Origin: Patescibacteria group bacterium
GTDB lineage: Bacteria; Patescibacteriota; Microgenomatia; 2-02-FULL-39-11
Length of the DNA stretch: 64,000 bases
NCBI GenBank assembly: GCA_023379265.1
Contig: JAMCUI010000019.1
Coordinates: 9,233-73,232 of the forward strand
Direction: 5' to 3'
Positions 29,737 through 63,609 of this stretch are shown in pieces. Under the pieces are notes generated by a model. The model was not told the origin of the DNA. It saw only the letters and a program-made list of their open reading frames with translations, and did not search any database. The translations under genes and the position numbers were made by a program. Positions within the stretch are counted from its first letter, which is position 1. The number at the start of each line of letters is the position of its first letter.

Positions 29737-29741
29737 TCTAT

Positions 29742-39578: not shown

Positions 39579-41279
39579 ATGCGTAAAACCCTTTTTTTGT
39601 TAGCAGCACTTTTTGTCATTTTTTCCTTTTCTCCTTCTATTTATGAAATTAATCGTAAAGATGCAATACCAAAGGAGAGGTATTTTGTTTTGGAACATAA
39701 TTATCTTTTTGACTACAATTTTTACCTTTCCCGGATAAAGGAAGGACTCTCGGGGCGGTGGACGGTTGTTGAGAAATACTACAACCAGCCGCACCAGGGT
39801 TCACTTTTCCAGATATTCTATCTTATGTTGGGTGAGGCAGGGAGGGTGTTTAATCTTACTCCGCCCGTTATTTATCACGGAGCAAGACTCATTTTTGGAT
39901 TCCTGTTTCTAGCAGCAGTAGGGTATTATATCAGTACTCTTTTTTCAGGCTTCTCTCAAATAGTGACATTTCTTTTGGTTGTCAATTCAGGAAGTTGGCC
40001 GGTTTTGGTAAAAGCAGGCAATTTCTGGCGCTTTGCCACATATATGGGTTGGTGGTCGGTGGTTGACAGCCTTCAGAGGATTACTTTCCTGCCGCATGTT
40101 CTTTTCGGACAGCTTTTTATTCTCTTATTTATATTTTGGTTAAGCGAAAAAGTTGCCGGGAAGAAAAGATTTGCCAAGATGGTGGCATTGGGGCTAATAG
40201 GATTTGTCGCAGGTATTATATTCCCGCCGACAGTTATTGTTTTATACGGCATTTTTGGGGTTCTGTCTCTTTTGGAAATAATTGACGTCTGGACTTTCAC
40301 TTTTGACAAAAAAGGACAGCGGATACTTTTTGACTGGTTTTTTGAGAAAGGTTTAACTAGGCTTATATTTCTTGTTTTATCTTCACTGTCTCTTCTTTAT
40401 GTGACTGTTATGTTTAATGTATTGCCTTGGAGTGCTCTCTCGCTTTTTGACATACAACACAGGACGGGATTGTCTTACAATGAGTATTTTATGGCTTTGG
40501 GACCTGTGTTGCCTTTGGGAATATTGGGAGGAATAGCTGTCGTTTTACGAAGGGATAAGAAATTATTCCCGGCTGTATCCTGGGTGGCTGCGGTTTTTAT
40601 ACTTTTCAAGATATTTGAAAATGTGCCCACCCAATCTCCACTGCGTTTTACCGAGGCGGCAATACATGTACCTTTGGGGATACTTACCGGCTATCTGGCG
40701 TATCTTATTTGGAAAGCGGCAGGAAAACTGTATAAACCATTGCGAAAAGTAGTAAGAGCTGGAGAAGGTATAGTTCTGTTCCTTATGATTCTTATGGGTA
40801 TTGGGGTAATGCTTTCCATGGTGATGTGGTTGACTGACCAGGTAAAGGCAAAAGCGGCCGGCACGTGGCCGGTGCCGATAGGAGCTGAATTAGTTTACCC
40901 TCTTAAGGATTTTATGAATGCAATTTTTTATATAAGGGACAATACAAACCAAAACAGTGTGGTTTTGGGCTATGTGACAGCTGGAAATTACATTCCTGCC
41001 TATGCGGGCAATTTTGTCTATATAGGACACGCCAATACGCCCGATGAAGACGGAAAGGAAAAGATTGCAGCCAGGTTTTTTTCGGGGAAAATGACACCTG
41101 AAGAGGCGAAAACATTTCTTACAAGAGAGAGAATATCTTACATATTATTCGGTCCTCAGGAGAAAGAGCTTGGAGGAATTCAAGATTTATCGACTATTTA
41201 TTCTAATCTATCTTTATTTTATAAAAATAGCCAGGTGGTGATATATAAAGTGGGAAATCAAATTGAAAAACAAAGTTAA
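39579..41279 (+). CDS. Polytopic membrane protein, five-member paralog family A; putative GT-C-like
   Basis: N-terminal loop HNYLFDYNFYLSRIKEG and a C-terminal soluble domain ...YIGHANTPDEDGKEKIAARFFSGKMTPEEAKTFL..ISYILFG are shared with four other genes here. Confidence 0.5.
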   Translation: MRKTLFLLAALFVIFSFSPSIYEINRKDAIPKERYFVLEHNYLFDYNFYLSRIKEGLSGRWTVVEKYYNQPHQGSLFQIFYLMLGEAGRVFNLTPPVIYHGARLIFGFLFLAAVGYYISTLFSGFSQIVTFLLVVNSGSWPVLVKAGNFWRFATYMGWWSVVDSLQRITFLPHVLFGQLFILLFIFWLSEKVAGKKRFAKMVALGLIGFVAGIIFPPTVIVLYGIFGVLSLLEIIDVWTFTFDKKGQRILFDWFFEKGLTRLIFLVLSSLSLLYVTVMFNVLPWSALSLFDIQHRTGLSYNEYFMALGPVLPLGILGGIAVVLRRDKKLFPAVSWVAAVFILFKIFENVPTQSPLRFTEAAIHVPLGILTGYLAYLIWKAAGKLYKPLRKVVRAGEGIVLFLMILMGIGVMLSMVMWLTDQVKAKAAGTWPVPIGAELVYPLKDFMNAIFYIRDNTNQNSVVLGYVTAGNYIPAYAGNFVYIGHANTPDEDGKEKIAARFFSGKMTPEEAKTFLTRERISYILFGPQEKELGGIQDLSTIYSNLSLFYKNSQVVIYKVGNQIEKQS

Positions 41280-42935
41280 TTATTTCAAAGTATATATTGT
41301 TGCTTCCGGCTCGTCAAAAACAGTTTTGAGGATTTTTGGATACAAATAGTGATTATATAGAGGCTTTTCTTCAGGACCTTGGAAAACTAGATCAATTTTA
41401 TTGCTCAAAAGAAACTGCTTGGCTTCATCTTCCGTCATTTCCCCTTTGAAAAATTTAAACGCTTCATCCTGTTTCTGGTTGACATTATAGGTATAACCAA
41501 AGTGGCCTAGAAAGCTGACTGTATGGGTGAAAGCAGGCAGATAATTGCCGCTGTAAAAAGTGGAGAGGACAACTGTTTTATTGGGGTAATTTTTATTTAT
41601 GTAGGAAAAAGCGTTGTTTAGCCTATTATCCAGGTAGACGTTGCCGAAAATCGGCCAATACTCCTTTATTTGATTTTGCATGCTCCAGACAAGAGTGGGA
41701 TAGGTGAATATGGCAAATAAAATGGTAAACAATATTATTATCCAGTGGTTTACCATTTTTTTAAGCATTCCGGATTTAATTTTTGGTAATGGTTTGAATT
41801 TTCTATTTATAAAGTCTTCAATTGATTTGATTCCTATTGAGGAAAGCATGGATAAAGGCAAATAAGGCGTTCCTTGAATTAGCCTGATATTTGACAGGTT
41901 GAGTTTTTGGGCAAACGGTATAAGTAGAAACGGAGCGATAAGCCAGGCGGAAAGAAGAAGGCCGTTGAATTTTTTGGAAATTATCGAAATCATTATGCCA
42001 AGTAGAGCAAATGGGAATAGAAATCCCATTGCGCCTACGATTTCTCCTGCAAGCGGGAACTGAAGCGTCTTTTCCCAGTCCAAATATTGGCTCCAGGGGA
42101 AACCGTGACCTGTCTGAGAGATCATAAAGAGAAGAATAAATGCTCCAATTGACCAATAGATAAGATACCAAAAAGTTACATTTAGGTCTTTTTGAAATTT
42201 ATTACTGTGGAAAAAATGATAGGTGATTACAGAAACGGGTAATATAAGAAGAATAATAAAAAGACTGGGCGGGTGGATAAATCCCAGAAATAAAGTGAAT
42301 AGTGCAGCGCATCCCAATAGTTTAATATTTTTCTCTTTGGCATATTTAACGATAAGAAAAATTGATAAGACAAGGATGAGGCTGCCGAATACATGGTGGG
42401 GTAGGTAGGCCGCGCGCCGTATCGGATCCATGCCCGTCCACCAGTTCATATATGGCACAGAAGTCACGTTTCCTGCGTCAATAGTATTGTGCATGAGCGG
42501 TGCGGCAAATGTAAAAAGGATAAAAGTGAGTCGGGGATATGGGATTTTTAAATAATTTATAAGCATGAAGGCCGTTGTCAAAAGTGCTATCCCTAATACA
42601 ATTCTTGTTGCATGGTAAGTGATGGGAAAAGGCAGTTTCAGTATACTGCTGATTTTCCCAAGCCAGGCAAAATAAGCGAATATTATTGAGGATTGATGCG
42701 GTTCGGAGGTATAGGGGTCATAAATTGCTGTCGCTCCACCAGCACCTTCATTCATAAGTGATTGGTAAAAGAAAAAATCCTGGACGTTATTGTGGATCAT
42801 GGCAAAAGTTCGGCCGGGAGGGGAATGGCGAATATCCAAAATCATCGGTGTTAGATTTAGACCCAAAATAATTACGGTACAGACCGTAATAAAAAGGATA
42901 TTGGAAGAGAAAATTATTACGAATTTATTTTTCAT
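41280..42935 (-). CDS. Polytopic membrane protein, paralog family A
   Basis: HNNVQDFFFYQSLMNEG and ...FLGHFGYTYNVNQKQDEAFKFFKGEMTEDEAKQFL. Confidence 0.5.
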   Translation of the reverse strand: MKNKFVIIFSSNILFITVCTVIILGLNLTPMILDIRHSPPGRTFAMIHNNVQDFFFYQSLMNEGAGGATAIYDPYTSEPHQSSIIFAYFAWLGKISSILKLPFPITYHATRIVLGIALLTTAFMLINYLKIPYPRLTFILFTFAAPLMHNTIDAGNVTSVPYMNWWTGMDPIRRAAYLPHHVFGSLILVLSIFLIVKYAKEKNIKLLGCAALFTLFLGFIHPPSLFIILLILPVSVITYHFFHSNKFQKDLNVTFWYLIYWSIGAFILLFMISQTGHGFPWSQYLDWEKTLQFPLAGEIVGAMGFLFPFALLGIMISIISKKFNGLLLSAWLIAPFLLIPFAQKLNLSNIRLIQGTPYLPLSMLSSIGIKSIEDFINRKFKPLPKIKSGMLKKMVNHWIIILFTILFAIFTYPTLVWSMQNQIKEYWPIFGNVYLDNRLNNAFSYINKNYPNKTVVLSTFYSGNYLPAFTHTVSFLGHFGYTYNVNQKQDEAFKFFKGEMTEDEAKQFLLSNKIDLVFQGPEEKPLYNHYLYPKILKTVFDEPEATIYTLK

Positions 42936-43394: not shown

Positions 43395-44171
43395 ATGGCA
43401 GCAGTAAAACCATCCATTTCAGTGTTTTTTCCCTTCCTCAACGATTGGGGAACGGTGGGAAGCCTTGTGGGTTTGACTGTAGATACTGTGAGCCGGTTGG
43501 CAGATGATTGGGAAGTGATAATAGTAAATGATGGCAGCGACGAAAAAGATAAAGAAGCTTTGGAGAAGATTGTTGGAGTGATTGAAAAGCAGGATAAGAT
43601 TAAACAAAAAACAAAAAGAATAAGAATTATAAACCATACAAAGAACATGGGATACGGAGGAGCGCTGAGGACAGGCTTCATGGCGGCAAAAAAGGATCTA
43701 GTCTTTTATACCGACTGTGATGCGCAGTATGACCCACGGGAGCTGATAAAGCTTTATGCTGCCATGAAGCCTGGGGTTTCCATGGTCAACGGATACAAGA
43801 TAAAAAGGCAGGATCCTTGGGTTAGGATAGTGGCGGGAAGGCTTTATCATTATACTGTGAGAACTGCGTTTGGTTTACCTATACGTGATACGGATTGTGA
43901 TTTCAGGTTAATACGAACGGAAGTGTTTAATCCCTCTCCAGGGTCAGGACACTCTGCTGTTAGGCTTTTTGAAAATACAGGCACAATTTGTACGGAGCTA
44001 GTGAAGAAAATAGACCATCATGGCTATAAAATTGTAGAGGTACCAGTGCACCATTTCTGGAGGACAAGCGGCAAAAGCCAGTTTTTCAACTTCAGGAGAC
44101 TGGTACAGACTGGTAACAATCTTTTTAGGTTGTGGTGGAAGTTGATGGTAAAAAACGATTACAACTCATGA
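43395..44171 (+). CDS. GT2 polyprenyl-phosphate glycosyltransferase (DPM1/GtrB/ArnC-like)
   Basis: IIVNDGSDEKD and the DXD motif DCDAQYDP; a size of about 258 aa. Confidence 0.8.
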   Translation: MAAVKPSISVFFPFLNDWGTVGSLVGLTVDTVSRLADDWEVIIVNDGSDEKDKEALEKIVGVIEKQDKIKQKTKRIRIINHTKNMGYGGALRTGFMAAKKDLVFYTDCDAQYDPRELIKLYAAMKPGVSMVNGYKIKRQDPWVRIVAGRLYHYTVRTAFGLPIRDTDCDFRLIRTEVFNPSPGSGHSAVRLFENTGTICTELVKKIDHHGYKIVEVPVHHFWRTSGKSQFFNFRRLVQTGNNLFRLWWKLMVKNDYNS

Positions 44172-44842
44172 AACCTGATACAAATATTAAAACAATCCTC
44201 GGTAGAATTTACCGCGTAAGGTATCCTAAAGAGATAGAGTTCCCAAAAGAAGCAATATGGAAAGTGCTTTGTCATGATTGGCTCCAGAAATTCGTTGGTA
44301 GAAGTGATACGGTTTTGGATATTGCAGCGGGACATTGTGAGTTTATAAATAATATCGTTTGCGGGAAGAAGTTTGCAGTGGATCTGGATAATAGGATTAA
44401 AAAATATGCAAACCCAGATGTTCAAATATTTATAAGATCAGCAGAAGACTTGCCTAAGAGCTTGAAAAATAAGGTGGACGTGGTGTTTATGGGATGTTTC
44501 TTGGAACATCTACCCTCCAAACAAGCAATAATTAAGGTCTTACTTGAGATTAAAAGTGTACTAAGGGATGGTGGAAAACTCATAATATTGAACCCGAATA
44601 TCAGATTTTCCACTTCAGATTACTGGGATTATTTTGATCATATTACTCCTGTAAGTGACCGCAGTATGGTGGAAATATTACAGGCGTTAGGTTTTAAGAT
44701 AGAAATTTGTTTGCCAAGGTTTGTTCCCAACACATTAAAGGATAGATTACCAAAATCACCCTTTTTGGTAAGATTATATCTTTCAATGCCATTTCTTTTT
44801 CCAATATTTGGTAAACAGATGTTTCTTGTAGTAGTTAAATGA
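44168..44842 (+). CDS. Class I SAM-dependent methyltransferase
   Basis: Motif I LDIAAGHCEF and LRDGGKLIILNP. The start ATG overlaps the GT2 stop codon (ATGA). Confidence 0.6.
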   Translation: MKPDTNIKTILGRIYRVRYPKEIEFPKEAIWKVLCHDWLQKFVGRSDTVLDIAAGHCEFINNIVCGKKFAVDLDNRIKKYANPDVQIFIRSAEDLPKSLKNKVDVVFMGCFLEHLPSKQAIIKVLLEIKSVLRDGGKLIILNPNIRFSTSDYWDYFDHITPVSDRSMVEILQALGFKIEICLPRFVPNTLKDRLPKSPFLVRLYLSMPFLFPIFGKQMFLVVVK

Positions 44843-44846
44843 CGGT

Positions 44847-46592
44847 CTAAAGTAATGGATTAGTTAATTTTATTTGGTATATTTTTACGGGTCCATTGTC
44901 AAAAATCTTCTCCAGAAAAGAGTATTTATTTATATCTCCTCCCAGATCTTTTTCCTGCCAGCCGTAGTAGATATAATTTATGCCGTTATCCCTCAGGAAT
45001 TTATACGCCTCCTGCGAGGTCCATTTGCCCCCAAAAAAGTTGTCCACATTTTGCTCTTTCGCTTGGTAATCCATAGTCTGGGTCACATGGCCGAAATAGC
45101 TTATGGTAGGGTTAAAGGCGGGGATAATGATACCCATTTTTTCGTTACTCAGAAAAACAGAATTTTTAGGAACATTTTCCTTTATGAACTTCATCGCATC
45201 CACGGAAGTTTTGGGGATATAAATATGGTCATAGACCGGCTCGTTTTTGATATAATCCATCCTGGTTTTCCATAACTTGAAAGATGAGGGAAGGGTAGTG
45301 GCAAAGAATAAGACTATAAGTGAGTATTGGATAAGACGTTTTTTTATCGGTGGGATAATCTTAAAAATTGTATAACCTGAAAGTATGCCTAAGGGAATAT
45401 ATGGTGCTTCCTCTACCAGCCTTATTTTGGCTATTCCGAAAGGATTGACAAATGGCAACATGATAAAAGGGGTTGCCGCCCAGACGCTAATAAAAAGCAG
45501 TTCCCAGCTGTTTTTTTTCACTGCGTGGTAAACTGCCGGAATTGAGAGTAAGGGAAGTATTCCGAATACTTCCAAAAGGTTCCTATTGAAATCCGGTTCT
45601 CCCCAGTTCCATCTCTCCACTCCCCAGGAGACCCATGTACTCCAGGGGAATCCCGTTGTCACTTGGTATTTGATGATGGCATAACACGCCAGTATTGCAA
45701 AAATTATGACTGAAAAACCTTTAATAAGCTGTAAGTTAATAATCAGTTTAAGTTTTGCCATATTTCGTTTCGGGTCGTGCCACTCACTACCCAGTAAATT
45801 TGGTTGCAAATTTACTGGGTACCTGGCTCGTGTTACCCGTTTAATTTCAAAATAAATTCGGGCAATATAGATAAAGTAAGCAATAGGTATGCCAACTGCT
45901 ACAGGAATGAGGACGGACGGCAGTATCATGCCGCCAATAAATATTGATATGGCGGCCAAAAGGGCATATTTTAGTTTCGGCTTCCTGAAAAAAAGAAATA
46001 CAAGTAAAATGGCGGCAAGAAGAAAAGCTTCTGAAGCGATATAGTGGGGGAGGTCATAAATCCTGTTTAGCGCATCAAGCACAATCCACCAGGGCATGCT
46101 GATGGGAAAATAGATAGGTTGCGCAAACATCAGTGTTGGGGAAATTGTGCCCAGAAGTCCGAATATAGCCCCCCAAATGGCATTTTTTCTGCTCAATATT
46201 TTTCCTGAGAGAAAGTAAACAAGTATCAGAAAAATCTCTGTAAATATTATTATTGTCAGGTGGTATGCAGCAATAGGTGAAAGGTGAAACAAGCCCGCAA
46301 CCTGTCCTATGCCGGTAAAAAATGTGTAGAATACGCCTTTCGACATTTTTTCCGTAGAGTATGGGTCTTGGTAGAGAAACCGGCCGTTTTCCCCTTGGTT
46401 TATGACGGCAAGATAAAGGTAATAGTCATGTGGCCAGTCGGAATGCACATATGGGAAAATTCGATCATGCGGGGTCTTGGCGGCACGCAAAATTATCGGC
46501 ACATTGGCAAAAATGACTACCAGGTTCATCAAGATAAAAAAGATGACAAAGCGAATGGATATAGATGTGTTTTTTTGTGGTTGTACAGACAT
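44847..46592 (-). CDS. Polytopic membrane protein, paralog family A
   Basis: HSDWPHDYYLYLAVINQG and ...YFGHVTQTMDYQAKEQNVDNFFGGKWTSQEAYKFL..INYIYYG. Confidence 0.5.
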   Translation of the reverse strand: MSVQPQKNTSISIRFVIFFILMNLVVIFANVPIILRAAKTPHDRIFPYVHSDWPHDYYLYLAVINQGENGRFLYQDPYSTEKMSKGVFYTFFTGIGQVAGLFHLSPIAAYHLTIIIFTEIFLILVYFLSGKILSRKNAIWGAIFGLLGTISPTLMFAQPIYFPISMPWWIVLDALNRIYDLPHYIASEAFLLAAILLVFLFFRKPKLKYALLAAISIFIGGMILPSVLIPVAVGIPIAYFIYIARIYFEIKRVTRARYPVNLQPNLLGSEWHDPKRNMAKLKLIINLQLIKGFSVIIFAILACYAIIKYQVTTGFPWSTWVSWGVERWNWGEPDFNRNLLEVFGILPLLSIPAVYHAVKKNSWELLFISVWAATPFIMLPFVNPFGIAKIRLVEEAPYIPLGILSGYTIFKIIPPIKKRLIQYSLIVLFFATTLPSSFKLWKTRMDYIKNEPVYDHIYIPKTSVDAMKFIKENVPKNSVFLSNEKMGIIIPAFNPTISYFGHVTQTMDYQAKEQNVDNFFGGKWTSQEAYKFLRDNGINYIYYGWQEKDLGGDINKYSFLEKIFDNGPVKIYQIKLTNPLL

Positions 46593-46762
46593 GTCCAGTC
46601 CTATCTAAATAGTTGGATCAAGCGTTCCGTATGCGATCTGCAAGAATTTGCACATACTTTGCATCTTTTAGTATTTCTTAAATAACGAACGTGAGACCCG
46701 TCTAAGTATAATTTTTTGTTTGTGATATTTCAATCAACTCCGGACGTGATAGAATAAGGCGG

Positions 46763-47749: not shown

Positions 47750-47776
47750 GTATTAGTTGAGATTTTGTTAAGAAAA

Positions 47777-50279: not shown

Positions 50280-50358
50280 TTTTTAATCTACGGGTACTGT
50301 GAGTAAACGTCGCTCATGGTATAAATTTCCTAGTTCGCAAGGATGGGAGATTTTGCCA

Positions 50359-51820: not shown

Positions 51821-51872
51821 ACTGGATGCAAATTTTTACTAATAATAATATATAAATTTTATATTTTCTCTA

Positions 51873-51919: not shown

Positions 51920-52002
51920 CAATCCTTAAAGGTTTCTTCAGGTCGGTGTAGTGTTTACAGCTTATGTTTGGATGATGTAATTTATTTATATTTGTGGTAG
52001 AA

Positions 52003-53199: not shown

Positions 53200-53253
53200 A
53201 CGATTGGTAAAAATACGATATCAGCAAAGAGTTTCCTTCACTATCTGAAAAGT

Positions 53254-56083: not shown

Positions 56084-56112
56084 TCGCTTAATTCTAATTT
56101 AAGGATCTGTAT

Positions 56113-56153
56113 AAGCTGCTCGGAGTGAATTTTTTTCTTCGTAAGGATAGGAG
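56113..56153 (+). promoter_or_regulatory. Conserved upstream motif copy 2 (AAGCTGCTCGGAGTGAATTTTTTTCTTCGTAAGGATAGGAGA), ending 8 nt before the ATG at 56162
   Basis: Near-identical to 43273-43316. It contains the RBS of the downstream gene. Confidence 0.4.
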
Positions 56154-56161
56154 ATTGAAAG

Positions 56162-57952: not shown

Positions 57953-57971
57953 TTGTTCATTTTTTCTGTTT

Positions 57972-58346
57972 ATGCTGAAAAATTATATTATCATACTTTT
58001 GACAATCTGCATCTCTGTCATTGCCCAGACGCTTTTGAAAACCGGGATGAAGGAGATAGGAACGGTTGAAAGTCTGTCACTTGAAAAAATTATTCCTCTT
58101 GCGATAAAGATGGGTACAAATGTTTTTGTCCTGGCGGGTCTTTCGCTTTACGGAATAGGTACTTTTTTTTGGCTTATTCTTCTTTCCCGACTTGATTTGT
58201 CATTTCTTTATCCTTTTGGTACGTTGCAATACTTTTTTATCTTTATTGTTTCATATCTGGTTTTTGGTGAGGATATAAAACTGGCCAGAATTGTGGGTGT
58301 GTCAATCATACTCGTGGGGATTTTTATAATAAGCAAGTTTGGGTGA
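57972..58346 (+). CDS. Small 4-TM DMT/EamA-like protein (ArnE/ArnF- or GtrA-like candidate lipid-linked sugar flippase)
   Basis: 124 aa with 4 predicted TM helices. The N-terminal ISVIAQTLLKTG pattern resembles ArnF. Confidence 0.45.
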   Translation: MLKNYIIILLTICISVIAQTLLKTGMKEIGTVESLSLEKIIPLAIKMGTNVFVLAGLSLYGIGTFFWLILLSRLDLSFLYPFGTLQYFFIFIVSYLVFGEDIKLARIVGVSIILVGIFIISKFG

Positions 58347-58355
58347 AACTTTAAT

Positions 58356-59960
58356 GTGAAGCGCAGATTTGAATACATTTCTGTCTTTTTCCTTTCTTTC
58401 CTGACTGTCCTTTTTATAGAGTTGCAGTTTATAGTAGACGCCGTAAGAACTCCCAAAAACACCTTTTATCTGGGTACGGTGCACTGGCCGCCGGACTATT
58501 TTTACTACCTGTCTCAATTTATTCAGGGAAAGTCCCATGTTTTGTCTTCGACAATACTTTATACCGGAGAGAGATTACCTCTTACGGTAATAGGCTGGCA
58601 AAACGTCTTGGCAGGCAGGATACTGACCGGAATACTTGGGCTTCAGGTTATATTGACTTACCAGATTACGGTTGTTCTTTTCCTTTCATTTTTCCTTATT
58701 TTGGCGTACCGTTTGCTTTTGGAGATATTTCCAAAAGAAGCCGGTAAAAGGATGCTTTCCTTTTTCTTTTTCGTCACAAGTACATCAATGCCTCTTTTTT
58801 CCGGATCTCTAAAAACAGGATTAAAACTGTCTTTCTATAACTATTGGTACAATACCGGCAATATATTTGACCGCCTGGGGCCGGCCCCGAACCATCTTCT
58901 TGCCAGTGCTTTTATGGCAGCAGGGTTTCTCCTATCGGCTTTGTTAGTAAAGTCCAACAATAGTGGAGGGAAAAGGAAAAAAATTCTTGCCGGTCTAAGT
59001 GTCTGCGGACTATTACTTGCAAGCATATCGCCGGTGGAGTGGGGACTTTTGGTAGCAGCAGTTTTTGGAGCAGCTTTTATATACCAGAGGAAAAGATTCC
59101 AACCTTACTATTTTGCGCCTTTTATAGCGCTTTTCCTATCCGGATTGCCTTTGGCAGTCTATGTCAAATATATTTTTTACCAGGAGCCATACGTAAAATC
59201 GTCCCTTTGGGAGGCGACACAACAGCTTGCTATGACTCCGTATGCTCTTTTTATGGGTAGCGGGCTTGTGATCATTTTTGCGCTTATTGGGGGATGGGCT
59301 TTTTTCAGAAAAACAACTTTTGAGAGGTTGGCTGGATTATTTCTTATTGCTATATCCGCCTTTTTTTACTTTTCTCCAACTCCAGACAAGCTGGGATTGA
59401 CTAATGCCAGGTTTTGGCCCCCAGCAATTTATATATTTATAGCAGCTGGAGCTGCTCAAGGAGTATTCCAGATTTATCAAAGATTTTCTAAACATCAGAA
59501 GATAATACTTATTTTTCTTATTATTATATATTTATTTACTATTATCCCTTCTGATTTAGCCCAACAGAGGGAGGAGGTTTTGGTGTCCCGCGCGGGAAAC
59601 GCTTTTTATTATATTCCTTCAGATGCTTACGGTGCCTATATAAAGACGATGGAGATGACCGTCCCAAATGATATAATTCTTGCCCAGTGGCCTTTTAATG
59701 AATCTTTTCCGGCTTTGACTGGCAGGAAGTCGTTTTTTGGCTATAATCTCTATACGATAAATTCAGCCCAAAAAGAAAAAGACATTTTTGCTTTTTTTGA
59801 CGGAAAAATGAGCCCGGAGGAAGTGAAAAATATGCTTGCGGGATATAAAATAGATTATATACTGGGATATCCGTGGATTGCTAAAATAGATTCTTATCCG
59901 TTTCTGAAGAAAGTATTCCAGAATAATATATTAGCACTGTATAAAGTGTTAGCCAATTAA
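58356..59960 (+). CDS. Polytopic membrane protein, paralog family A
   Basis: LGTVHWPPDYFYYLSQFIQGK and ...FFGYNLYTINSAQKEKDIFAFFDGKMSPEEVKNML..IDYILGY. GTG start. Confidence 0.5.
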   Translation: MKRRFEYISVFFLSFLTVLFIELQFIVDAVRTPKNTFYLGTVHWPPDYFYYLSQFIQGKSHVLSSTILYTGERLPLTVIGWQNVLAGRILTGILGLQVILTYQITVVLFLSFFLILAYRLLLEIFPKEAGKRMLSFFFFVTSTSMPLFSGSLKTGLKLSFYNYWYNTGNIFDRLGPAPNHLLASAFMAAGFLLSALLVKSNNSGGKRKKILAGLSVCGLLLASISPVEWGLLVAAVFGAAFIYQRKRFQPYYFAPFIALFLSGLPLAVYVKYIFYQEPYVKSSLWEATQQLAMTPYALFMGSGLVIIFALIGGWAFFRKTTFERLAGLFLIAISAFFYFSPTPDKLGLTNARFWPPAIYIFIAAGAAQGVFQIYQRFSKHQKIILIFLIIIYLFTIIPSDLAQQREEVLVSRAGNAFYYIPSDAYGAYIKTMEMTVPNDIILAQWPFNESFPALTGRKSFFGYNLYTINSAQKEKDIFAFFDGKMSPEEVKNMLAGYKIDYILGYPWIAKIDSYPFLKKVFQNNILALYKVLAN

Positions 59961-60025
59961 AAAGTCTATATTTTTCCGAAATAATAACTAAGGAAAGATA
60001 GAGTGGCACTGTATATCGGTAGTAT

Positions 60026-61828
60026 ATGAAAAGTAAGAAAAGAATAATTCTCTTAATACTCACAGTTTTGATACTTGTACCCCTTGTTATTCCGGTTTTT
60101 ACCCCTTATGTATTGGGTACGGCAGACGGTTTGGCGCATAAGTTCAGGCTTGTTTCTTTTGAACACTCGTTAAGAGAAGGGTACTTGCGTCCCCGCTGGT
60201 TAGCCGATCAGGCGTTGGGGTACGGTTCTCCGATTTTCATCTTCAATTATTTGATGCCTTACTATAGTATCGCGGTAGTTAATCTTTTTGGACTGACAGT
60301 AAACCTGTCAACACAGGTTTTTATTGCAGCAACAATTCTTCTATCCTTTTTCTTTATGTTCCTTTTGGGTAGAAAGCTGTGGGGGACAAATGCTGGGTTG
60401 GTCGCAGGAGGTGTATATGCCTGGGCCCCTTACCACCTTCTGACAATTTTCCTTTATGAAGGATGGGGAGAATTTACCGCTTTTGTTTTCCCGCCACTAC
60501 TTTTATTTCTGATACTAAAAATCAGAGATTTATGGGAGAAATGTGGTGTAAAAGCCGGAAAAACCAGATATATACCGGAAGAGATGGGGAAACCACTTAT
60601 GTTTTATCTGGTCATGACTGTTTTTTCCTGGTTTCTTTTTATTCTGACTCATAACGTATCTGCGCTCCTGTTCTCGCCCCTATTGCTTTTCCTTTCATTT
60701 GTAGCTGCAGATTTTCGGCTTTTCAAACCATTTCTTCTGACAGTTTATGCTTTTCTCACTACTGTTTTTCTGGGCGCATTTTTCTGGTTGCCGGCAATTT
60801 CCATGGATAACCTGACTGCATATCCGCAGCTTATGGCAAAAGAGATGGAGATCCGGGGATCGTACTTTAAGTCTTTCTATACGCTTTTATCCGTGGCTTT
60901 TTCTACTATAAGGAGCGGATCTGCAGGATATTACGATTTTACCATTGGCCTGCCAATAATAGTTGTTTTTGTTGTCGGATTGGCATTTATTATCAGATAT
61001 TTGGTGAAATTATTCAAAACATCAAAAATTCAAATGCCAAAAATAGCCAATGAATTAGTCAAAGTAGTGACGGGGAGAGAAAAGTTAGTGATTTGGCTGT
61101 TTGTAATTTTATTTGGTTCTCTTTATTTATCCAACCATGCGTCAAATCTGCTTTGGGACATTCCACTTTTTAGGTTTATAGTCTATCCGTTCCGCTTCCT
61201 TTTCCCGGCCACTTTTGCCGGAAGTCTGCTCGCCGGATGGATTGGCCGCAAAAATAACCTTATTGCTATTACGTTTATACTTTTGGCTATAGTTGCCGGA
61301 AGACCCTATACTAATCCCGCAATAGACAAATTTCCCTTTTCCGACGGCTATTTCCAAAAGGTGCAGACCGTTTTCCATCCTCCTGGAACCCTGAAGAATA
61401 TGGCAACCAGGGAATTCCTGCCTCAAGGAGCTGATCTTTCGTTCCTGCAAAATGTGCAGGATGAGTATCTCACTTCAGGCAAATTGCCGCAAAAATTTGT
61501 CTTTACACAAGGTTCGGGGGAAGTGTTATCGGAGGATATTAAAGCTGAAAGAATGCAAGTTGTTGTTGCTTCCAAAAGTCAAAGTCAGTTGACGGTCAAT
61601 GCTTTTTATTTTCCCGACTGGTATGTCTTTGTCGATGGAAAACAATCGGTGCTTGATCGGGACCAATATGGGCGGATGAGAGTGTGGTTATCAGGTGGAA
61701 GGCATGATATCTTATTTGTGTTTGGGGTAAGCAATATTGAGAAAGTGGGTGACGCAATTTCGATATTGGGAGTCATATTTTTAGCCGGATCGGTTTATTA
61801 TTTGTGGAGAAAAAGTAAGTTGAATTAA
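60026..61828 (+). CDS. YfhO-like GT-C membrane protein (tentative)
   Basis: N-terminal GTADGLAHKFRLVSFEHSLREGYLRPRWLADQALGYGSPIFIFNYLMPYY fits the YfhO N-terminal pattern. Confidence 0.45.
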   Translation: MKSKKRIILLILTVLILVPLVIPVFTPYVLGTADGLAHKFRLVSFEHSLREGYLRPRWLADQALGYGSPIFIFNYLMPYYSIAVVNLFGLTVNLSTQVFIAATILLSFFFMFLLGRKLWGTNAGLVAGGVYAWAPYHLLTIFLYEGWGEFTAFVFPPLLLFLILKIRDLWEKCGVKAGKTRYIPEEMGKPLMFYLVMTVFSWFLFILTHNVSALLFSPLLLFLSFVAADFRLFKPFLLTVYAFLTTVFLGAFFWLPAISMDNLTAYPQLMAKEMEIRGSYFKSFYTLLSVAFSTIRSGSAGYYDFTIGLPIIVVFVVGLAFIIRYLVKLFKTSKIQMPKIANELVKVVTGREKLVIWLFVILFGSLYLSNHASNLLWDIPLFRFIVYPFRFLFPATFAGSLLAGWIGRKNNLIAITFILLAIVAGRPYTNPAIDKFPFSDGYFQKVQTVFHPPGTLKNMATREFLPQGADLSFLQNVQDEYLTSGKLPQKFVFTQGSGEVLSEDIKAERMQVVVASKSQSQLTVNAFYFPDWYVFVDGKQSVLDRDQYGRMRVWLSGGRHDILFVFGVSNIEKVGDAISILGVIFLAGSVYYLWRKSKLN

Positions 61829-61908
61829 TTGGAAGCTATTCTCAGAGAAGATTTTCACCTGCTTCGTATCTTCCTGATGAAGTAAAGGTTTCAAAGAGAA
61901 TTAAATTA

Positions 61909-63609
61909 ATGGAGATCCTACTAATAGGTTTTATCATAGTTTTATTTCTTTTTCTCAACGGCTTGCCGCTTATAGTTGGTATGATAAATACTCCCAAAGG
62001 AAGCCAGTTTTTGGGAACTGTCCATTGGCCGCCTGATTATTTTTATTATCTATCTCAGTTTTTTCAGGGCAAAGGCAACTGGTTTGCCAGTTATGACCTT
62101 TTTACCGGTGACTTCATATCAAAGACATTTGTGGGATGGGTAAACGTCTTTTTGGGACATGTATTTAGTCTATTGGGTATAGGCAGTGTAGCAGCTTACC
62201 AGATTTCAATTGTCATTTTTGCAGTTATCCTTCTTATAGCGTCTTATCTTCTCATAAGAGAAATCTTTCCTGGTTCGGCTTCAAAAAGAGTCGCGGCTTT
62301 TTTATTTTTTGTCACAAGCAACGCTTTTCCCAAGATTGTTGAATCAGGAGGCAAACTAACTTTTTCCTATTTTGACTACTGGTACAACACAGGGTTGCCT
62401 TTTAACCGCTTGGGCGGTGTGCCACACCATTTTATTGCCCGGGCAGGCATAACATTAGCGATATTGTTGGCAGTCTGGTGGTGGAAAAGGTTGGGGAAAT
62501 ATAGATTCGACAAAAAAAGTATCTCTAAGTATATCATTGCGTTTCTTCTTTCGGGATTTATCCTTGCCAGTGTGGAGCCGGTACAGTGGGGGATAACTGT
62601 AGGTGTTTTGGGGATAGTAGCATTTTTAATCTTTGTCATGCCGAATTTATTTCTGCATCCCGATAAGACAATGAAAGAGACCCTGAAAGAGATTCCGAAA
62701 CGAGTTCAGGATGACACTTCGGTATCATTAACTGACACCTTAGCGTCAGTTTGGGGAGGCAAGAGTTTTTTTCTTCCTTCTGTTTTACTCTTAATTGGCG
62801 GGTTGCCAATGGCAGTTTATCTGAAGAGAACATTTTCAACACTGCCTTTTATACAGCTGGCTCTTTGGGAGAATAGCCAGCAATTGCATATCAGTTTTAT
62901 GACATATATTTTAGCAAATGGTTCCGTTGTCGCTGTTGCAATTCTCGGAGTGGTTTTCTTTGTCAGGAAAATGGATTTGGCAAGGCTTACCGCCTTTGTT
63001 TTTACATTTGTGACAATATTTTTATTTTTCTCTCCTATTCCGGCACTGGTCTCAGTAGTAAACGTGAGGTTTTTACCTGCCACAACAACGCTTTTCCTAT
63101 CATGCATGGCAACAGCCGGAATTTTTACTGTCGCAAGCCGGTTTAGCGAAGCAAAAAATATCGTTTTCCTGTTACTTACTCTATCAATCATCATCATAAT
63201 GTTGCCGACTTATTATATCCAACTCCAGGACAGGGTAAAGGTGGATCCTGCTTTCGGACTTATTTATCTACCGCAAAAGGTACTTGTTTCATATCAAAAG
63301 GCACAGGTAATTTCCACCCCTTCAGATACTTTTATGGCTGTTTATCCTTTTAATTTGTCGCTTCCGGCCATCGCCGGACGTCGCGTCTTTGAAGGACATG
63401 AGCTTCTGACAATAAATGACGGTAAAAAAATGGGGGAGGCCAACGATTTTTTTGCCGGAAAGATAACTTCTGAGAAAATGGATAGTTTCCTCCATAAAAA
63501 CAATATCCATTATCTATTTATCTACTCGACTGAAAAAGAATTTGCATCAATGCCTTTTCTGAAAAAAGTATATGATAACGAGATGGTGGCAATTTATAAA
63601 GTAAATTGA
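61909..63609 (+). CDS. Polytopic membrane protein, paralog family A
   Basis: LGTVHWPPDYFYYLSQFFQGK and ...FEGHELLTINDGKKMGEANDFFAGKITSEKMDSFL..IHYLFIY. Confidence 0.5.
   Translation: MEILLIGFIIVLFLFLNGLPLIVGMINTPKGSQFLGTVHWPPDYFYYLSQFFQGKGNWFASYDLFTGDFISKTFVGWVNVFLGHVFSLLGIGSVAAYQISIVIFAVILLIASYLLIREIFPGSASKRVAAFLFFVTSNAFPKIVESGGKLTFSYFDYWYNTGLPFNRLGGVPHHFIARAGITLAILLAVWWWKRLGKYRFDKKSISKYIIAFLLSGFILASVEPVQWGITVGVLGIVAFLIFVMPNLFLHPDKTMKETLKEIPKRVQDDTSVSLTDTLASVWGGKSFFLPSVLLLIGGLPMAVYLKRTFSTLPFIQLALWENSQQLHISFMTYILANGSVVAVAILGVVFFVRKMDLARLTAFVFTFVTIFLFFSPIPALVSVVNVRFLPATTTLFLSCMATAGIFTVASRFSEAKNIVFLLLTLSIIIIMLPTYYIQLQDRVKVDPAFGLIYLPQKVLVSYQKAQVISTPSDTFMAVYPFNLSLPAIAGRRVFEGHELLTINDGKKMGEANDFFAGKITSEKMDSFLHKNNIHYLFIYSTEKEFASMPFLKKVYDNEMVAIYKVN

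What the first reader, a model, noticed from the sequence alone, without database searches (positions are those of the whole stretch)
39579..63609. Five-member paralog family with the conserved ends HWPPDYFYYLSQ...QG and GH...FF.GKMT.EEAK.FL
Genes 39579-41279, 41280-42935, 44847-46592, 58356-59960 and 61909-63609 share an N-terminal loop (H/W-P-x-DY-F/Y-YYLS-x-I-x-QG, just before the second TM helix). They also share a C-terminal soluble domain of about 70 aa (P-A-F/L ... F/Y-x-GH ... FF-x-GKM-T/S-x-EE-A/V-K-x-F/M-L ... I-x-Y-I/L). Two members are adjacent and divergent and two are in tandem. This points to lineage-specific expansion of one uncharacterized family, probably for substrate diversification.
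Basis: seen in the sequence. Interest (0 to 1): 0.6.

Follow-up and report, generated by a model that had tools for sequence, protein, structure and literature searches.

The report
Five STT3-like membrane glycosyltransferase paralogues
The five genes are true paralogues from a large, unannotated family of membrane glycosyltransferases (GT-C fold, distantly related to the oligosaccharyltransferase STT3/AglB) that Gottesmanbacteria-type candidate-phyla bacteria probably use to attach sugars to their cell surface.

Summary
All five ORFs exist at the stated coordinates and align over their full length (blastp E 1e-99 to 2e-4 at a 1e9-residue database size). They form two subgroups, A/B/C and D/E. 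No Pfam or NCBIfam model matches them or 58 relatives, yet the family has 5,868 50%-identity cluster representatives in public data. An AlphaFold model of protein A (pLDDT 95) matches only GT-C glycosyltransferases: STT3/AglB/PglB first, then DPY19, AftA, ArnT and ALG9/12. The sequon-binding WWDYG motif is replaced by signatures specific to each paralogue group. An ArnC/GtrB-like GT2 and an ArnF-like small transporter lie in the same island. The most likely function is transfer of sugars from polyprenyl-phosphate donors to outside acceptors, each paralogue with its own acceptor or linkage. The expansion is old and shared across Gottesmanbacteria, not specific to this genome. The acceptor, glycan or protein, is unresolved.

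The parts
39579..41279 (+). Paralogue A (566 aa). It is the founding orthologous group, conserved across Gottesmanbacteria. Predicted topology is 11 TM helices, N-terminus in and C-terminal domain out.
   Evidence: ORF. The AF2 model has pLDDT 95.2 and pTM 0.93. Its top 29 Foldseek PDB hits are all GT-C enzymes. Orthologues occur in 78 of 80 loci.
41280..42935 (-). Paralogue B (551 aa), convergent with A with 0 bp between the stop codons.
   Evidence: A-B E = 5e-42. The convergent A/B pair recurs in L001, L002, L004, L009, L010, L012, L013, L049 and L073.
44847..46592 (-). Paralogue C (581 aa). It has an extra cytoplasmic insertion of about 30 aa between TM6 and TM7.
   Evidence: A-C 3e-37, B-C 5e-41. 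It has its own orthologous group.
58356..59960 (+). Paralogue D (534 aa, GTG start). It starts 9 bp downstream of the ArnF-like small transporter gene, in an operon-like arrangement.
   Evidence: D-E 1e-99, 34% identity. No clear orthologues of its own were found among the sequences sampled.
61909..63609 (+). Paralogue E (566 aa).
   Evidence: Its orthologues are 40-78% identical.
39684..39758 (+). First external loop (EL1) motif of A, residues 36-60, FVLEHNYLFDYNFYLSRIKEGLSGR, with the invariant Asp45 (codon 39711-39713). Asp45 is the inferred catalytic carboxylate. The equivalents are B D53 (42777-42779), C D56 (46425-46427), D D47 (58494-58496) and E D43 (62035-62037).
   Evidence: D45 is one of only two strictly invariant residues across 108 diverse members. 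It starts the EL1 helix 43-57 of the model.
40077..40079 (+). Arg167 of A, in EL2 within the motif RITFLPH. It is at least 90% conserved and is the inferred ligand of the donor phosphate. Equivalents are B R174, C R177, D R173 and E R167.
   Evidence: The role is inferred by analogy with Arg211/Arg471 of DPY19 (PMC10154233). Spatial proximity was not tested.
40644..40646 (+). Arg356 of A, in the outside loop between TM9 and TM10 within the motif SPLRFTE. It is at least 90% conserved and is the inferred second phosphate ligand. Equivalents are B R351, C R391, D R352 and E R387.
   Evidence: The role is inferred by analogy, as for Arg167.
40860..41276 (+). It is homologous to the C-terminal globular domain of AglB/STT3. 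The loop TAGNYIPA (467-474) occupies the position of WWDYG. The equivalent domains are B 41283-41657 (-), C 44850-45242 (-), D 59595-59957 (+) and E 63253-63606 (+).
   Evidence: The A5 profile hits 3vu0 with E = 1.4e-4, and 3vgp and 2lgz in the same register. hhalign gives probability 94%. Foldseek on the domain model gives 3vu0 with TM 0.60/0.55 and E = 1e-5, and the next 15 hits are all OST or DPY19.
43395..44171 (+). GT2 glycosyltransferase (258 aa), the candidate polyprenyl-phosphate sugar synthase that makes the lipid-linked donor.
   Evidence: Pfam Glycos_transf_2 at 1e-20. The best solved relatives are ArnC (1.7e-15), GtrB/sll0501 (2.3e-9) and Dol-P-Man synthase (2.8e-4). A GT2 homologue lies within 10 kb of an A orthologue in 39 of 80 loci.
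57972..58346 (+). Small four-helix EamA/SMR-like protein (124 aa), the candidate flippase for the lipid-linked sugar. It lies immediately upstream of D.
   Evidence: NCBIfam ArnF at E = 6e-14 (52 bits, below the 99-bit cut-off) and ArnE at 1e-6. Pfam EamA at 2e-5. It was not found near A orthologues in other loci (0 of 80).

Best explanation
The five genes encode paralogous integral-membrane glycosyltransferases of the GT-C(A) fold. They belong to a large family with no Pfam, NCBIfam or literature description, centred on Gottesmanbacteria/Microgenomates (CPR) with outliers in Chloroflexota. The family is a remote relative of the STT3/AglB/DPY19 branch.

Proposed mechanism:
1. A cytoplasmic GT2 enzyme (43395-44171, ArnC/GtrB/DPM1-like) loads a sugar onto polyprenyl phosphate.
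2. A small ArnE/F-like transporter (57972-58346) or an equivalent flips the lipid-linked sugar to the outer face of the membrane.
3. Each paralogue binds the donor at the membrane-outside interface. The donor phosphate is held by the conserved arginines of EL2 and the TM9-10 loop (R167 and R356 in A). The invariant Asp of the first external loop (D45 in A) acts as the catalytic base or acid.
4. The sugar is transferred to an acceptor held under the C-terminal AglB-like 'dome' domain.

The paralogues share the catalytic and donor site but differ in the acceptor-side loops, so each probably makes a different linkage or serves a different acceptor. Together with about a dozen other GT-C enzymes in the same window, they would elaborate a cell-surface glycoconjugate step by step outside the cytoplasm.

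Shown: paralogy, fold, C-domain homology, conservation pattern, topology and genomic context. Inferred: donor type, roles of D45/R167/R356, and the acceptor.
For: Paralogy:
- Pairwise alignments, nine of ten over nearly the full length, give E from 1e-99 to 2e-4.
- A family HMM picks exactly these five ORFs in the window.

Fold:
- The AF2 model of A has pLDDT 95.2 and pTM 0.93.
- Its top 29 Foldseek PDB hits are all GT-C enzymes: STT3 4e-10, AglB 2e-9, DPY19 1e-8, AftA 3e-8 (TM 0.55), PglB 3e-7, ArnT 2e-6 and ALG12/9. Scores then collapse to noise with probability below 0.25.

C-terminal domain:
- A 108-member profile hits the AglB-S2 C-terminal domain 3vu0 at E = 1.4e-4. AglB-S1 (3vgp) and yeast STT3 (2lgz) align in the same register.
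- hhalign gives probability 94%.
- The isolated domain model hits 3vu0 with TM 0.60, and the next 15 hits are OST or DPY19.

Active site:
- D45 and G85 are the only strictly invariant residues across 108 members that are 18-42% identical to A. R167 and R356 are at least 90% conserved.
- All of these lie in predicted outside loops.

Topology:
- The model gives 11 TM helices. The four K/R-rich loops (4-6 K+R each) all fall on the cytoplasmic side, which places EL1, EL2, the TM9-10 loop and the C-domain outside.

Precedent:
- DPY19 uses one EL1 carboxylate plus two arginines, needs no metal and uses Dol-P-Man (PMC10154233).

Context:
- The island holds an ArnC/GtrB-like GT2 and an ArnF-like small transporter.
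- It also holds DegT aminotransferase, SDR dehydratase/epimerase, GNAT and methyltransferase genes for sugar tailoring, plus PMT_2 (three copies), ALG10-like and YfhO-like GT-C genes.
- A GT2 homologue lies near A orthologues in 39 of 80 loci.
- Three-component systems of synthase, flippase and GT-C are established (PMC11127046; PMC8035078).

Specialisation:
- The EL2 loop and the WWDYG-equivalent loop have signatures that differ between groups and are conserved within each group.
Against: - There is no biochemical evidence for any family member.
- No sequence model of any known GT family matches: Pfam and NCBIfam find nothing, and hhalign against the window's own PMT_2-type proteins gives nothing.
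- TM-scores to solved GT-Cs are only about 0.5, with rmsd of 7-13 Å.
- I could not inspect coordinates, so the proximity of D45, R167 and R356 is not verified.
- R167 is not conserved in the Chloroflexota member.
- The ArnF-like gene does not co-occur with A orthologues elsewhere (0 of 80 loci), and the GT2 co-occurs in only about half.
- The AglB fragment used for hhalign was chosen after the HMMER hit, so it confirms the register rather than providing independent detection.
- The isolated C-domain model has only moderate confidence (pLDDT 70).
Confidence: 0.78

Rival explanations
1. The paralogues are protein-directed glycosyltransferases in the manner of STT3/AglB, DPY19 or PMT. Each attaches a sugar directly to a different peptide motif on surface proteins such as S-layer proteins, pilins or the conserved neighbouring 231-aa membrane protein. 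They would not extend a glycan. This is a more specific version of the main explanation and differs only in the acceptor.
For: - The transmembrane core and, separately, the C-terminal domain both rank the protein-modifying GT-Cs first (STT3/AglB, then DPY19).
- The only sequence-level link is to AglB/STT3 C-terminal domains.
- The loop that replaces the peptide-binding WWDYG motif is conserved within each orthologous group and differs between groups.
- A small type-II membrane protein with a Pro/Ser-rich linker (38822-39517) is divergently transcribed from A and is conserved beside A in 51 of 80 loci.
Against: - WWDYG itself, which binds the +2 Ser/Thr of the sequon, is absent.
- The 'luminal dome' core is also shared by the glycan-directed Emb and AftD enzymes (PMC10154233).
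- AftA, which acts on a glycan acceptor, gives the best rmsd and target TM-score.
- The island is packed with other GT-Cs, including ALG10-like and YfhO-like ones, and holds a CBM51/NPCBM protein. This fits stepwise glycan building.
Confidence: 0.3
2. They are genuine oligosaccharyltransferases, functional AglB/PglB equivalents. They would transfer a pre-assembled oligosaccharide en bloc from a polyprenyl-diphosphate carrier to Asn in N-X-S/T sequons.
For: - STT3 and AglB are the top structural hits.
- The C-terminal domain is homologous to that of the minimal AglB-S2.
- The protein length (534-581 aa) is, from my memory, close to that of the short archaeal AglB-S enzymes.
Against: - The WWDYG motif is replaced.
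- There is no second invariant acidic motif equivalent to the D-x-D or E of EL2/EL5 that coordinates the metal in OSTs. D45 is the only invariant acid.
- The model has 11 TM helices rather than 13.
- No Pfam STT3 match appears even at E <= 1.
- Five to several paralogues per locus is unlike known OST genes.
- The adjacent GT2 is of the monophosphate-sugar synthase type, related to ArnC, GtrB and DPM1.
Confidence: 0.05
3. They are not enzymes but transporters or structural membrane proteins. One relative is labelled 'MFS family permease' by JGI. On this view the shared motifs reflect folding or oligomerisation constraints.
For: - One automatic JGI name, on P0094.
- The proteins are polytopic membrane proteins with no recognised catalytic domain in Pfam.
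Against: - Foldseek matches to transporters are at noise level (probability below 0.25, TM about 0.1), against probability 1.00 for 29 GT-C structures.
- The single invariant acidic residue lies exactly in EL1, where GT-C enzymes have their catalytic carboxylate.
- The genomic context is glycosylation throughout.
Confidence: 0.02

Closest known systems
STT3 / AglB / PglB oligosaccharyltransferase catalytic subunits (CAZy GT66, Pfam STT3)
   Same: - They are the best structural matches for the whole protein (E 4e-10 to 1e-6, TM about 0.5).
- The C-terminal domain is homologous by sequence (3vu0 E = 1.4e-4; 3vgp and 2lgz in the same register; hhalign 94%) and by fold (TM 0.60).
- There is an invariant Asp in EL1.
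- The topology is N-in, C-out with the soluble domain outside.
   Different: - WWDYG is replaced by group-specific loops: TAGNYIP in A, FYSGNYLP in B, PFNLSLP in E.
- No second or third conserved acidic motif for metal binding is present.
- The model predicts 11 TM helices rather than 13.
- There is no match to the Pfam STT3 model.
- Genomes carry multi-copy clusters of 2-5 members.
- The likely donor is a monophosphate-linked single sugar rather than a diphosphate-linked oligosaccharide (inferred).
DPY19 tryptophan C-mannosyltransferases (CAZy GT98)
   Same: - They are high-ranking structural matches for both the whole protein (1e-8, TM 0.54) and the C-domain (2.5e-5).
- The active-site logic may be the same. 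DPY19 uses one EL1 carboxylate (Glu71, Asp in DPY19L4) plus two arginines on the phosphate, is metal independent and uses a Dol-P-monosaccharide donor (PMC10154233). The family shows D45 plus R167 and R356.
- DPY19 also lacks WWDYG and is regarded as sharing an ancestor with STT3.
   Different: - DPY19 is eukaryotic, has 13 TM helices and a larger, disulfide-tethered luminal dome.
- No sequence-level similarity to DPY19 was detected here.
- The acceptor chemistry of the family is unknown.
ArnT / PMT_2-type bacterial GT-C enzymes (GT83/GT39; Pfam PF13231, PF02366)
   Same: - They share the GT-C(A) fold (ArnT 5f15 E = 1.6e-6).
- They use Und-P-monosaccharide donors made by an ArnC-type GT2 and flipped by ArnE/F, and relatives of both are in the island.
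- UniRef names three relatives 'Glycosyltransferase RgtA/B/C/D-like domain-containing protein'.
   Different: - None of the 63 members matches PF13231 or PF02366, even at E <= 1.
- ArnT ranks below STT3, DPY19 and AftA for the whole protein and does not appear among the C-domain hits.
- hhalign against the window's own PMT_2 proteins gives nothing.
Three-component extracytoplasmic glycosylation systems (GtrA/GtrB/Gtr*, CsbB/GtcA/YfhO, and the ORF15/ORF14/ORF12 system whose ORF12 GT-C founded CAZy family GT136)
   Same: - The system logic is the same: a polyprenyl-P-sugar synthase, a small flippase and a GT-C enzyme acting outside the membrane, with the GT-C component setting acceptor and linkage specificity (PMC11127046; PMC8035078).
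- All three parts are present in the island.
   Different: - Here a single island carries five paralogues of one novel GT-C family plus about 12 other GT-C-like genes, rather than one GT-C per system.
- The flippase gene is not conserved next to the family in other genomes (0 of 80 loci).
Mycobacterial arabinofuranosyltransferase AftA (GT85)
   Same: - It gives the best rmsd (6.7 Å) and target-normalised TM-score (0.53) of all hits (8if8).
- It is similar in size.
- It belongs to a system in which several GT-C paralogues act in sequence on one cell-wall glycan.
   Different: - No sequence similarity was detected.
- It does not appear among the hits of the isolated C-domain.

Membership tests
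GT-C superfamily (GT-C(A) structural class) | A polytopic membrane core of 7-13 TM helices whose fold matches solved GT-C enzymes | tested here: met
   The AF2 model (pLDDT 95.2) has 11 TM helices. The top 29 Foldseek PDB hits are all GT-C enzymes with probability 1.00, followed by a sharp drop to noise.
GT-C superfamily (GT-C(A) structural class) | A long first extracytoplasmic loop with short helices that carries a conserved catalytic Asp or Glu | tested here: met
   EL1 spans residues 26-94 with helices 43-57 and 79-90. D45 is invariant in 108 diverse members. Its catalytic role is inferred, not shown.
GT-C superfamily (GT-C(A) structural class) | Use of a polyprenyl-(di)phosphate-linked sugar donor on the extracytoplasmic face | not testable with these tools
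   Only context supports it: an ArnC/GtrB-like GT2, an ArnF-like protein and an outside-facing topology for the conserved residues.
STT3/AglB/PglB oligosaccharyltransferases (GT66) | A WWDYG motif at the start of the C-terminal domain that binds the +2 Ser/Thr of the sequon | tested here: not met
   In the HMMER and hhalign alignments the family's xxT/S-A-G-N (A: VTAGN; D: PFNES) lies under SWWDYGN of AglB and AWWDYGY of STT3. WWD is absent in all five paralogues and in the group consensuses.
STT3/AglB/PglB oligosaccharyltransferases (GT66) | Additional conserved acidic residues, the D-x-D / E-x-D motif and the EL5 Glu, that coordinate the divalent metal | tested here: not met
   D45 is the only invariant acidic residue, and no other acidic residue reaches 90% conservation across the 108 members. 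D163 in EL2 is aligned in A, B and C, but D and E have N or L at that column.
STT3/AglB/PglB oligosaccharyltransferases (GT66) | A homologous C-terminal globular (alpha/beta core) domain | tested here: met
   3vu0 gives E = 1.4e-4 by profile search, with 3vgp and 2lgz in the same register. hhalign gives 94%. Foldseek gives TM 0.60/0.55 at E = 1e-5.
STT3/AglB/PglB oligosaccharyltransferases (GT66) | A match to the family's sequence model (Pfam STT3) | tested here: not met
   No Pfam family reached E <= 1 for the five or for any of the 63 members apart from chance-level hits. STT3 was not among them.
DPY19 C-mannosyltransferases (GT98) | An active site built from one EL1 carboxylate and two arginines on the donor phosphate, with no metal site | tested here: inconclusive
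   The conservation pattern fits: D45 is invariant, and R167 and R356 are at least 90% conserved in outside loops. However, 3-D proximity could not be examined, and R167 is missing in the Chloroflexota member.
DPY19 C-mannosyltransferases (GT98) | Sequence membership of the family (Pfam Dpy19 model) | tested here: not met
   No Pfam hit and no DPY19 chain in the PDB sequence searches. The similarity is structural only.
PMT_2 / ArnT-type GT-C (PF13231, PF02366; GT39/GT83) | A match to PF13231 or PF02366 | tested here: not met
   None of the 63 members matches at E <= 1, although three relatives carry the UniRef name 'Glycosyltransferase RgtA/B/C/D-like domain-containing protein'.
Three-component (Gtr-type) extracytoplasmic glycosylation system | A polyprenyl-phosphate sugar synthase (GT2 of the GtrB/ArnC/DPM1 type) encoded with the GT-C | tested here: met
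   The GT2 at 43395-44171 has as best solved relatives ArnC (1.7e-15), GtrB (2.3e-9) and Dol-P-Man synthase (2.8e-4). A GT2 homologue lies near A orthologues in 39 of 80 loci. Its substrate was not determined.
Three-component (Gtr-type) extracytoplasmic glycosylation system | A small flippase (GtrA, ArnE/F or SMR type) encoded with the GT-C | tested here: inconclusive
   The protein at 57972-58346 is ArnF-like at E = 6e-14 but scores 52 bits, below the 99-bit cut-off. It lies 9 bp upstream of D. No homologue was found near A orthologues (0 of 80 loci).

The most novel reading that the evidence does not exclude
The family is a third, bacterial branch of the STT3/AglB-DPY19 lineage of protein glycosyltransferases. 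On this reading it is an STT3-like enzyme that lost the WWDYG sequon reader and the metal site, switched to polyprenyl-monophosphate single-sugar donors, and radiated into several orthologous groups in Gottesmanbacteria. Each group would recognise a different peptide determinant. Ultra-small CPR bacteria would then run an extensive, previously unrecognised protein-glycosylation system built on STT3-type enzymes. This would also be informative about the deep evolution of N- and C-glycosylation machinery.
Probability: 0.25. Interest if true: 0.75.

Novelty: new variant of a known kind. Interest (0 to 1): 0.5.

Why it matters
GT-C enzymes build or decorate most prokaryotic cell-surface glycoconjugates. 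Their families are so divergent that many remain invisible to sequence annotation.

This family has thousands of sequence clusters and is covered by no Pfam or NCBIfam model. It shows a detectable sequence link to the C-terminal domain of the oligosaccharyltransferase STT3/AglB, with the sequon-reading WWDYG motif swapped for signatures specific to each paralogue group.

It occurs in multi-copy clusters in roughly 1-Mb CPR genomes that otherwise economise on genes, and this 64-kb window carries about 17 GT-C-like genes. That implies cell-surface glycosylation is a major investment for these episymbiotic bacteria and may matter for host attachment or immune and phage evasion.

The result gives a concrete catalytic residue and defined specificity loops to test. 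It also provides a candidate new CAZy GT family and a new outgroup for reconstructing how N- and C-glycosylation enzymes evolved.

Tried and rejected
Alignments, nine of ten pairs over nearly the full length, reach E as low as 1e-99, and polar residues (D, R, H, K, T) are positionally invariant.
- **Pfam and NCBIfam scans** of the five proteins, and a Pfam scan of all 63 family members, gave nothing above chance. The UniRef 'RgtA/B/C/D-like' name could not be reproduced with the current Pfam.
- **The narrow family profile (A2) against PDB sequences** gave no GT-C hit. Only the broader 108-member profile (A5) reached AglB.
- **hhalign of the family profile against the window's other GT-C-type proteins** (47765, 56162, 60026, 36500) showed no significant relation. 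The five are therefore not just divergent PMT_2 copies of their neighbours.
- **A sixth member in the window** does not exist.
- **The distant members P0288-P0291** were scanned for a Pfam bridge to a known family. Only a sub-threshold DUF6798 hit appeared.
- **The GTDB genome scan** used patterns derived from subfamily A only, so it under-samples the other subgroups and cannot give the family's full taxonomic range.
- **Literature searches** for GT-C or oligosaccharyltransferase together with CPR, Patescibacteria or Gottesmanbacteria found no description of the family.
- **The transporter reading** (JGI 'MFS permease') is rejected on structural grounds.

Full report
**Observation.** The five ORFs are open at exactly the coordinates given (re-translated):
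- A: 39579-41279, + strand, 566 aa
- B: 41280-42935, - strand, 551 aa
- C: 44847-46592, - strand, 581 aa
- D: 58356-59960, + strand, 534 aa, GTG start
- E: 61909-63609, + strand, 566 aa

All ten pairs align by blastp, nine of them over nearly the full length; C-E splits into two segments in one search direction. At an effective database size of 1e9, D-E gives 1e-99 (34% identity), A-B 5e-42, A-C 3e-37 and B-C 5e-41. Pairs between the two subgroups give 1e-18 to 2e-4. The family therefore splits into subgroups A/B/C and D/E.

In the N-terminal loop, D45, Y49 and G56 (A numbering) are invariant. In the C-terminal domain, P473, A474, G483, T487, K493, F500, F501, G503, L514 and I519 are invariant. 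A family HMM run over all 142 ORFs of 80 aa or more in the window recovers these five and nothing else, even at E <= 10.

Four details in the finding are inaccurate:
- A and B are convergent. Their stop codons abut at 41279/41280, so they are not divergent.
- D and E are separated by a 600-aa gene (60026-61828).
- The motif loop begins about 20 residues after TM1, not just before TM2.
- The soluble C-terminal domain is about 120-140 aa, not about 70 aa.

**Source organism and family size.** Proteins A and E are identical to 'hypothetical protein M1271_06990' and 'M1271_07075' of a Patescibacteria-group MAG, on a 93,914-bp contig. The named relatives are almost all Candidatus Gottesmanbacteria, Microgenomates or Woesebacteria. 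One full-length member comes from Chloroflexota: P0291, with hhalign probability 100%, E = 1.6e-45 and 498 aligned columns.

An exhaustive HMMER search of 1.84 billion 50%-identity representatives found 5,868 proteins at E <= 1e-3, 4,290 at E <= 1e-10 and 1,720 at E <= 1e-30. No Pfam or NCBIfam model matches the five proteins. No Pfam model matches any of the 63 aligned members, even at E <= 1. Three relatives carry the automatic UniRef name 'Glycosyltransferase RgtA/B/C/D-like domain-containing protein', which I could not reproduce with the current Pfam. Literature searches found no description of the family.

**Fold.** An AlphaFold2 model of A, built from a 63-sequence alignment, has mean pLDDT 95.2 and pTM 0.93. 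In a Foldseek search of the PDB, its top 29 hits are all GT-C glycosyltransferases:

| Enzyme | E-value |
|---|---|
| Eukaryotic STT3 | 4e-10 |
| Archaeal AglB | 2e-9 |
| DPY19 | 1.2e-8 |
| AftA (best rmsd 6.7 Å, TM 0.55/0.53) | 3.4e-8 |
| PglB | 2.7e-7 |
| ArnT | 1.6e-6 |
| ALG12 | 8.2e-6 |
| ALG9 | 2.4e-3 |

After these the list collapses to transporters with probability below 0.25 and TM about 0.1.

Combining the model's secondary structure with loop charges gives 11 TM helices with the N-terminus inside. The four K/R-rich loops (190-196, 239-250, 324-328 and 379-397, with 4-6 K+R each) all fall on the cytoplasmic side. That places EL1 (residues 26-94), EL2 (142-171), the TM9-10 loop (347-362) and the C-terminal domain (428-566) outside.

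**The C-terminal motif is the STT3/AglB C-domain core.** A broader 108-member profile (A5), searched against all PDB sequences, has as its top hit the C-terminal globular domain of Archaeoglobus fulgidus AglB-S2 (3vu0, E = 1.4e-4). AglB-S1 (3vgp, E = 0.32) and yeast STT3 (2lgz, E = 0.55) align to the same profile region in the same register. hhalign of the profile against the matched AglB fragment gives probability 94% (E = 1.2e-7). A profile made only from the five window C-domains gives the same register at lower confidence, 43%. The fragment was chosen after the HMMER hit, so these comparisons confirm the register rather than the detection.

Independently, an AF2 model of the isolated C-domain (pLDDT 70, pTM 0.70) hits 3vu0 first (E = 1.1e-5, TM 0.60/0.55). 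The next 15 hits are DPY19 or STT3/OST chains, with no ArnT, PMT or Aft entry.

The family's LSxxTAGNxIPA lies on AVLSWWDYGNWILY. The position of the sequon-binding WWDYG motif is therefore retained, but WWD is gone.

**The N-terminal motif is the likely catalytic loop.** Across 108 members that are only 18-42% identical to A, the only strictly invariant residues are D45 and G85. Y49, R167, P172, H173, P216, G308, R356, P473, G483, T487, K493 and F500 are at least 90% conserved. D45 opens the first EL1 helix (43-57). That is where GT-C enzymes carry their catalytic carboxylate; DPY19's Glu71, for example, is marked in its EL1 (PMC10154233). That DPY19 paper describes a metal-free site with one EL1 carboxylate (Glu71, Asp in DPY19L4) and two arginines (Arg211 and Arg471) that stabilise the phosphate of Dol-P-Man. 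The family's pattern of one acid and two arginines (D45, R167 in EL2, R356 in the TM9-10 loop) fits this better than the multi-acid metal site of OSTs. This step is an inference, because I could not examine the model's coordinates.

**Genomic context.** The five genes sit in a glycosylation island that contains:
- a GT2 (43395-44171) whose best solved relatives are ArnC (1.7e-15), GtrB (2.3e-9) and Dol-P-Man synthase (2.8e-4);
- a methyltransferase (44132);
- an SDR dehydratase/epimerase (46763);
- a DegT aminotransferase (51994);
- a GNAT acetyltransferase (55514);
- a 124-aa ArnF/ArnE-like protein (57972-58346; E = 6e-14, below the curated cut-off), 9 bp upstream of D;
- further GT-C-type genes: PMT_2 at 47765, 50462 and 56162, ALG10-like at 49026 and YfhO-like at 53254;
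- a 663-aa membrane protein with a CBM51/NPCBM domain (36500-38491).

The first half of the window adds DUF2298, PMT_2, PMT and TMEM260-like membrane proteins. The window therefore holds roughly 17 GT-C-like genes in 64 kb.

A synthase, a flippase and a GT-C together make up the established three-component logic for extracytoplasmic glycosylation (PMC11127046; PMC8035078).

**Comparative genomics.** The scan of GTDB species-representative genomes returned 80 loci. Its search patterns came from subfamily A, so it is biased toward that group. Sixty of the 80 loci have 2-5 family members within +/-10 kb, and the convergent A/B arrangement recurs.

Several window genes have homologues within 10 kb of A orthologues:

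| Window gene | Loci with a homologue (of 80) |
|---|---|
| 231-aa protein (38822) | 51 |
| NPCBM membrane protein (36500) | 50 |
| 843-aa protein (33717) | 48 |
| GT2 (43395) | 39 |
| PMT_2-like (56162) | 37 |
| YfhO-like (53254) | 32 |
| DegT (51994) | 24 |
| ArnF-like (57972) | 0 |

Orthology assignment shows that A has clear orthologues at a median 39% identity, against 23-28% between paralogues. B, C and E also have their own groups, while D has none among the sequences sampled. The expansion is therefore old and shared across the class. It is not specific to this genome.

**Specialisation.** Group-wise consensus sequences show that the EL1 motif D-Y/F-x-F/Y-Y-L/Q-S...G is universal. EL2 and the WWDYG-equivalent loop differ between groups but are conserved within each:

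| Group | WWDYG-equivalent loop |
|---|---|
| A | Ls..TAGNYIP.y.GntVYvGHaNT |
| B | LsTFYtGNYLPafThT.SFiGH.gT |
| C | Ls....G.iiPA..pv.sY.GH..T |
| E | LviwPFNwsfPg..GRrvyeGH.LT |

This is the pattern expected if a shared donor and catalytic site is combined with diverged acceptor recognition.

**Conclusion.** The five genes are paralogues of a large, unannotated GT-C(A) glycosyltransferase family that is a remote relative of STT3/AglB and DPY19. It should not be filed as an oligosaccharyltransferase, for three reasons:
- WWDYG is absent.
- The extra acidic metal-binding motifs are absent.
- There is no match to the Pfam STT3 model.

The most likely mechanism is transfer of single sugars from polyprenyl-phosphate donors to extracytoplasmic acceptors, with D45 as the catalytic residue. 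Each paralogue would provide a different acceptor or linkage specificity within a multi-enzyme surface-glycan pathway. I put confidence at about 0.78 for the enzyme class and general mechanism.

Whether the acceptor is a glycan or lipid-linked polymer (my slight preference, given the dense GT-C island) or a protein (about 0.3) cannot be decided from sequence. I rate the finding a new variant of a known kind, of moderate interest.

Noticed in passing
window 5111-63609: The density of GT-C-type membrane glycosyltransferase genes is extraordinary. Besides the five paralogues there are PMT_2 genes at 12748, 47765, 50462 and 56162, a PMT gene at 16827, TMEM260-like at 18812, ALG10-like at 49026, YfhO-like at 53254 and DUF2298 at 5111. 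Large membrane ORFs with no GT-C Pfam match lie at 15103, 33717, 36500 and 60026. That is roughly 17 such genes in 64 kb, from a lineage whose closed genomes are about 1 Mb.
   Followed up: partly
window 38822-39517 (-): A 231-aa protein with no Pfam hit has one N-terminal TM helix, a Pro/Ser-rich linker (SPLPVSPSFSPNPPTAP) and an ectodomain of about 150 aa. It is divergently transcribed from A across a 61-bp spacer, and a homologue lies near A orthologues in 51 of 80 loci. It could be a partner or an acceptor substrate, but this is speculative.
   Followed up: partly
window 36500-38491 (-) and 33717-36248 (-): A 663-aa polytopic membrane protein ends in a CBM51/NPCBM carbohydrate-binding domain (Pfam 4e-34; PDB 7js4 and 2vmg). 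An 843-aa protein next to it has no Pfam hit. Both are syntenic with A in about 50 of 80 loci. The membrane part of the 663-aa protein may be another unannotated GT-C.
   Followed up: partly
window 60026-61828 (+): A 600-aa polytopic membrane protein lies between D and E. It has no Pfam, NCBIfam or PDB sequence match, and only a non-significant N-terminal hhalign alignment to the family (E = 0.08). It may be yet another orphan GT-C family.
   Followed up: partly
window 51994-63609 (+): Eight same-strand genes run with gaps from a 20-bp overlap (YfhO-like/GNAT) up to 80 bp: DegT, YfhO-like, GNAT, PMT_2, ArnF-like, D, the unknown 600-aa gene and E. This looks like a single operon that couples amino-sugar synthesis to four or five GT-C enzymes.
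   Followed up: no
window 43395-53199: The island holds an Arn-like gene set: an ArnC-like GT2, a DegT aminotransferase (ArnB/PseC-like), an SDR 4,6-dehydratase/decarboxylase-like enzyme, a GNAT and a methyltransferase. This suggests the lipid-linked donor may be a modified, N-acetylated or methylated amino-deoxy sugar. All NCBIfam hits fall below the equivalog cut-offs.
   Followed up: partly
L001, L004, L009, L010 and about 30 other loci: Many TPA_asm MAG records titled 'uncultured Gammaproteobacteria bacterium' carry clear Gottesmanbacteria-type loci, one of them with a 90%-identical orthologue of A. The organism label on these records looks like a placeholder or a mis-assignment.
   Followed up: no
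P0053, P0072, P0240 (relatives of A): UniRef names these 'Glycosyltransferase RgtA/B/C/D-like domain-containing protein'. Neither P0053 nor P0072, both in the 63-member alignment, matches PF13231 in the current Pfam even at E <= 1. P0240 was not scanned here. The name appears to be a legacy of an older model or threshold.
   Followed up: partly
P0290, P0291 (Chloroflexota and an unnamed metagenome protein): The most divergent family members give a sub-threshold hit to Pfam DUF6798 (E = 0.004-0.008). The hit falls around residues 416-446, near where the C-terminal domain begins. DUF6798 may be a fragmentary model of this same STT3-like C-domain in other phyla.
   Followed up: no
window 29049-33119: Just upstream of the glycosylation island lies an NAD-salvage-type cluster: an NrtR-like regulator, a phosphoribosyltransferase of the QRPTase/NAPRTase family, a cytosine/purine-type permease and an isochorismatase/nicotinamidase-like gene. 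It appears unrelated to the finding.
   Followed up: no
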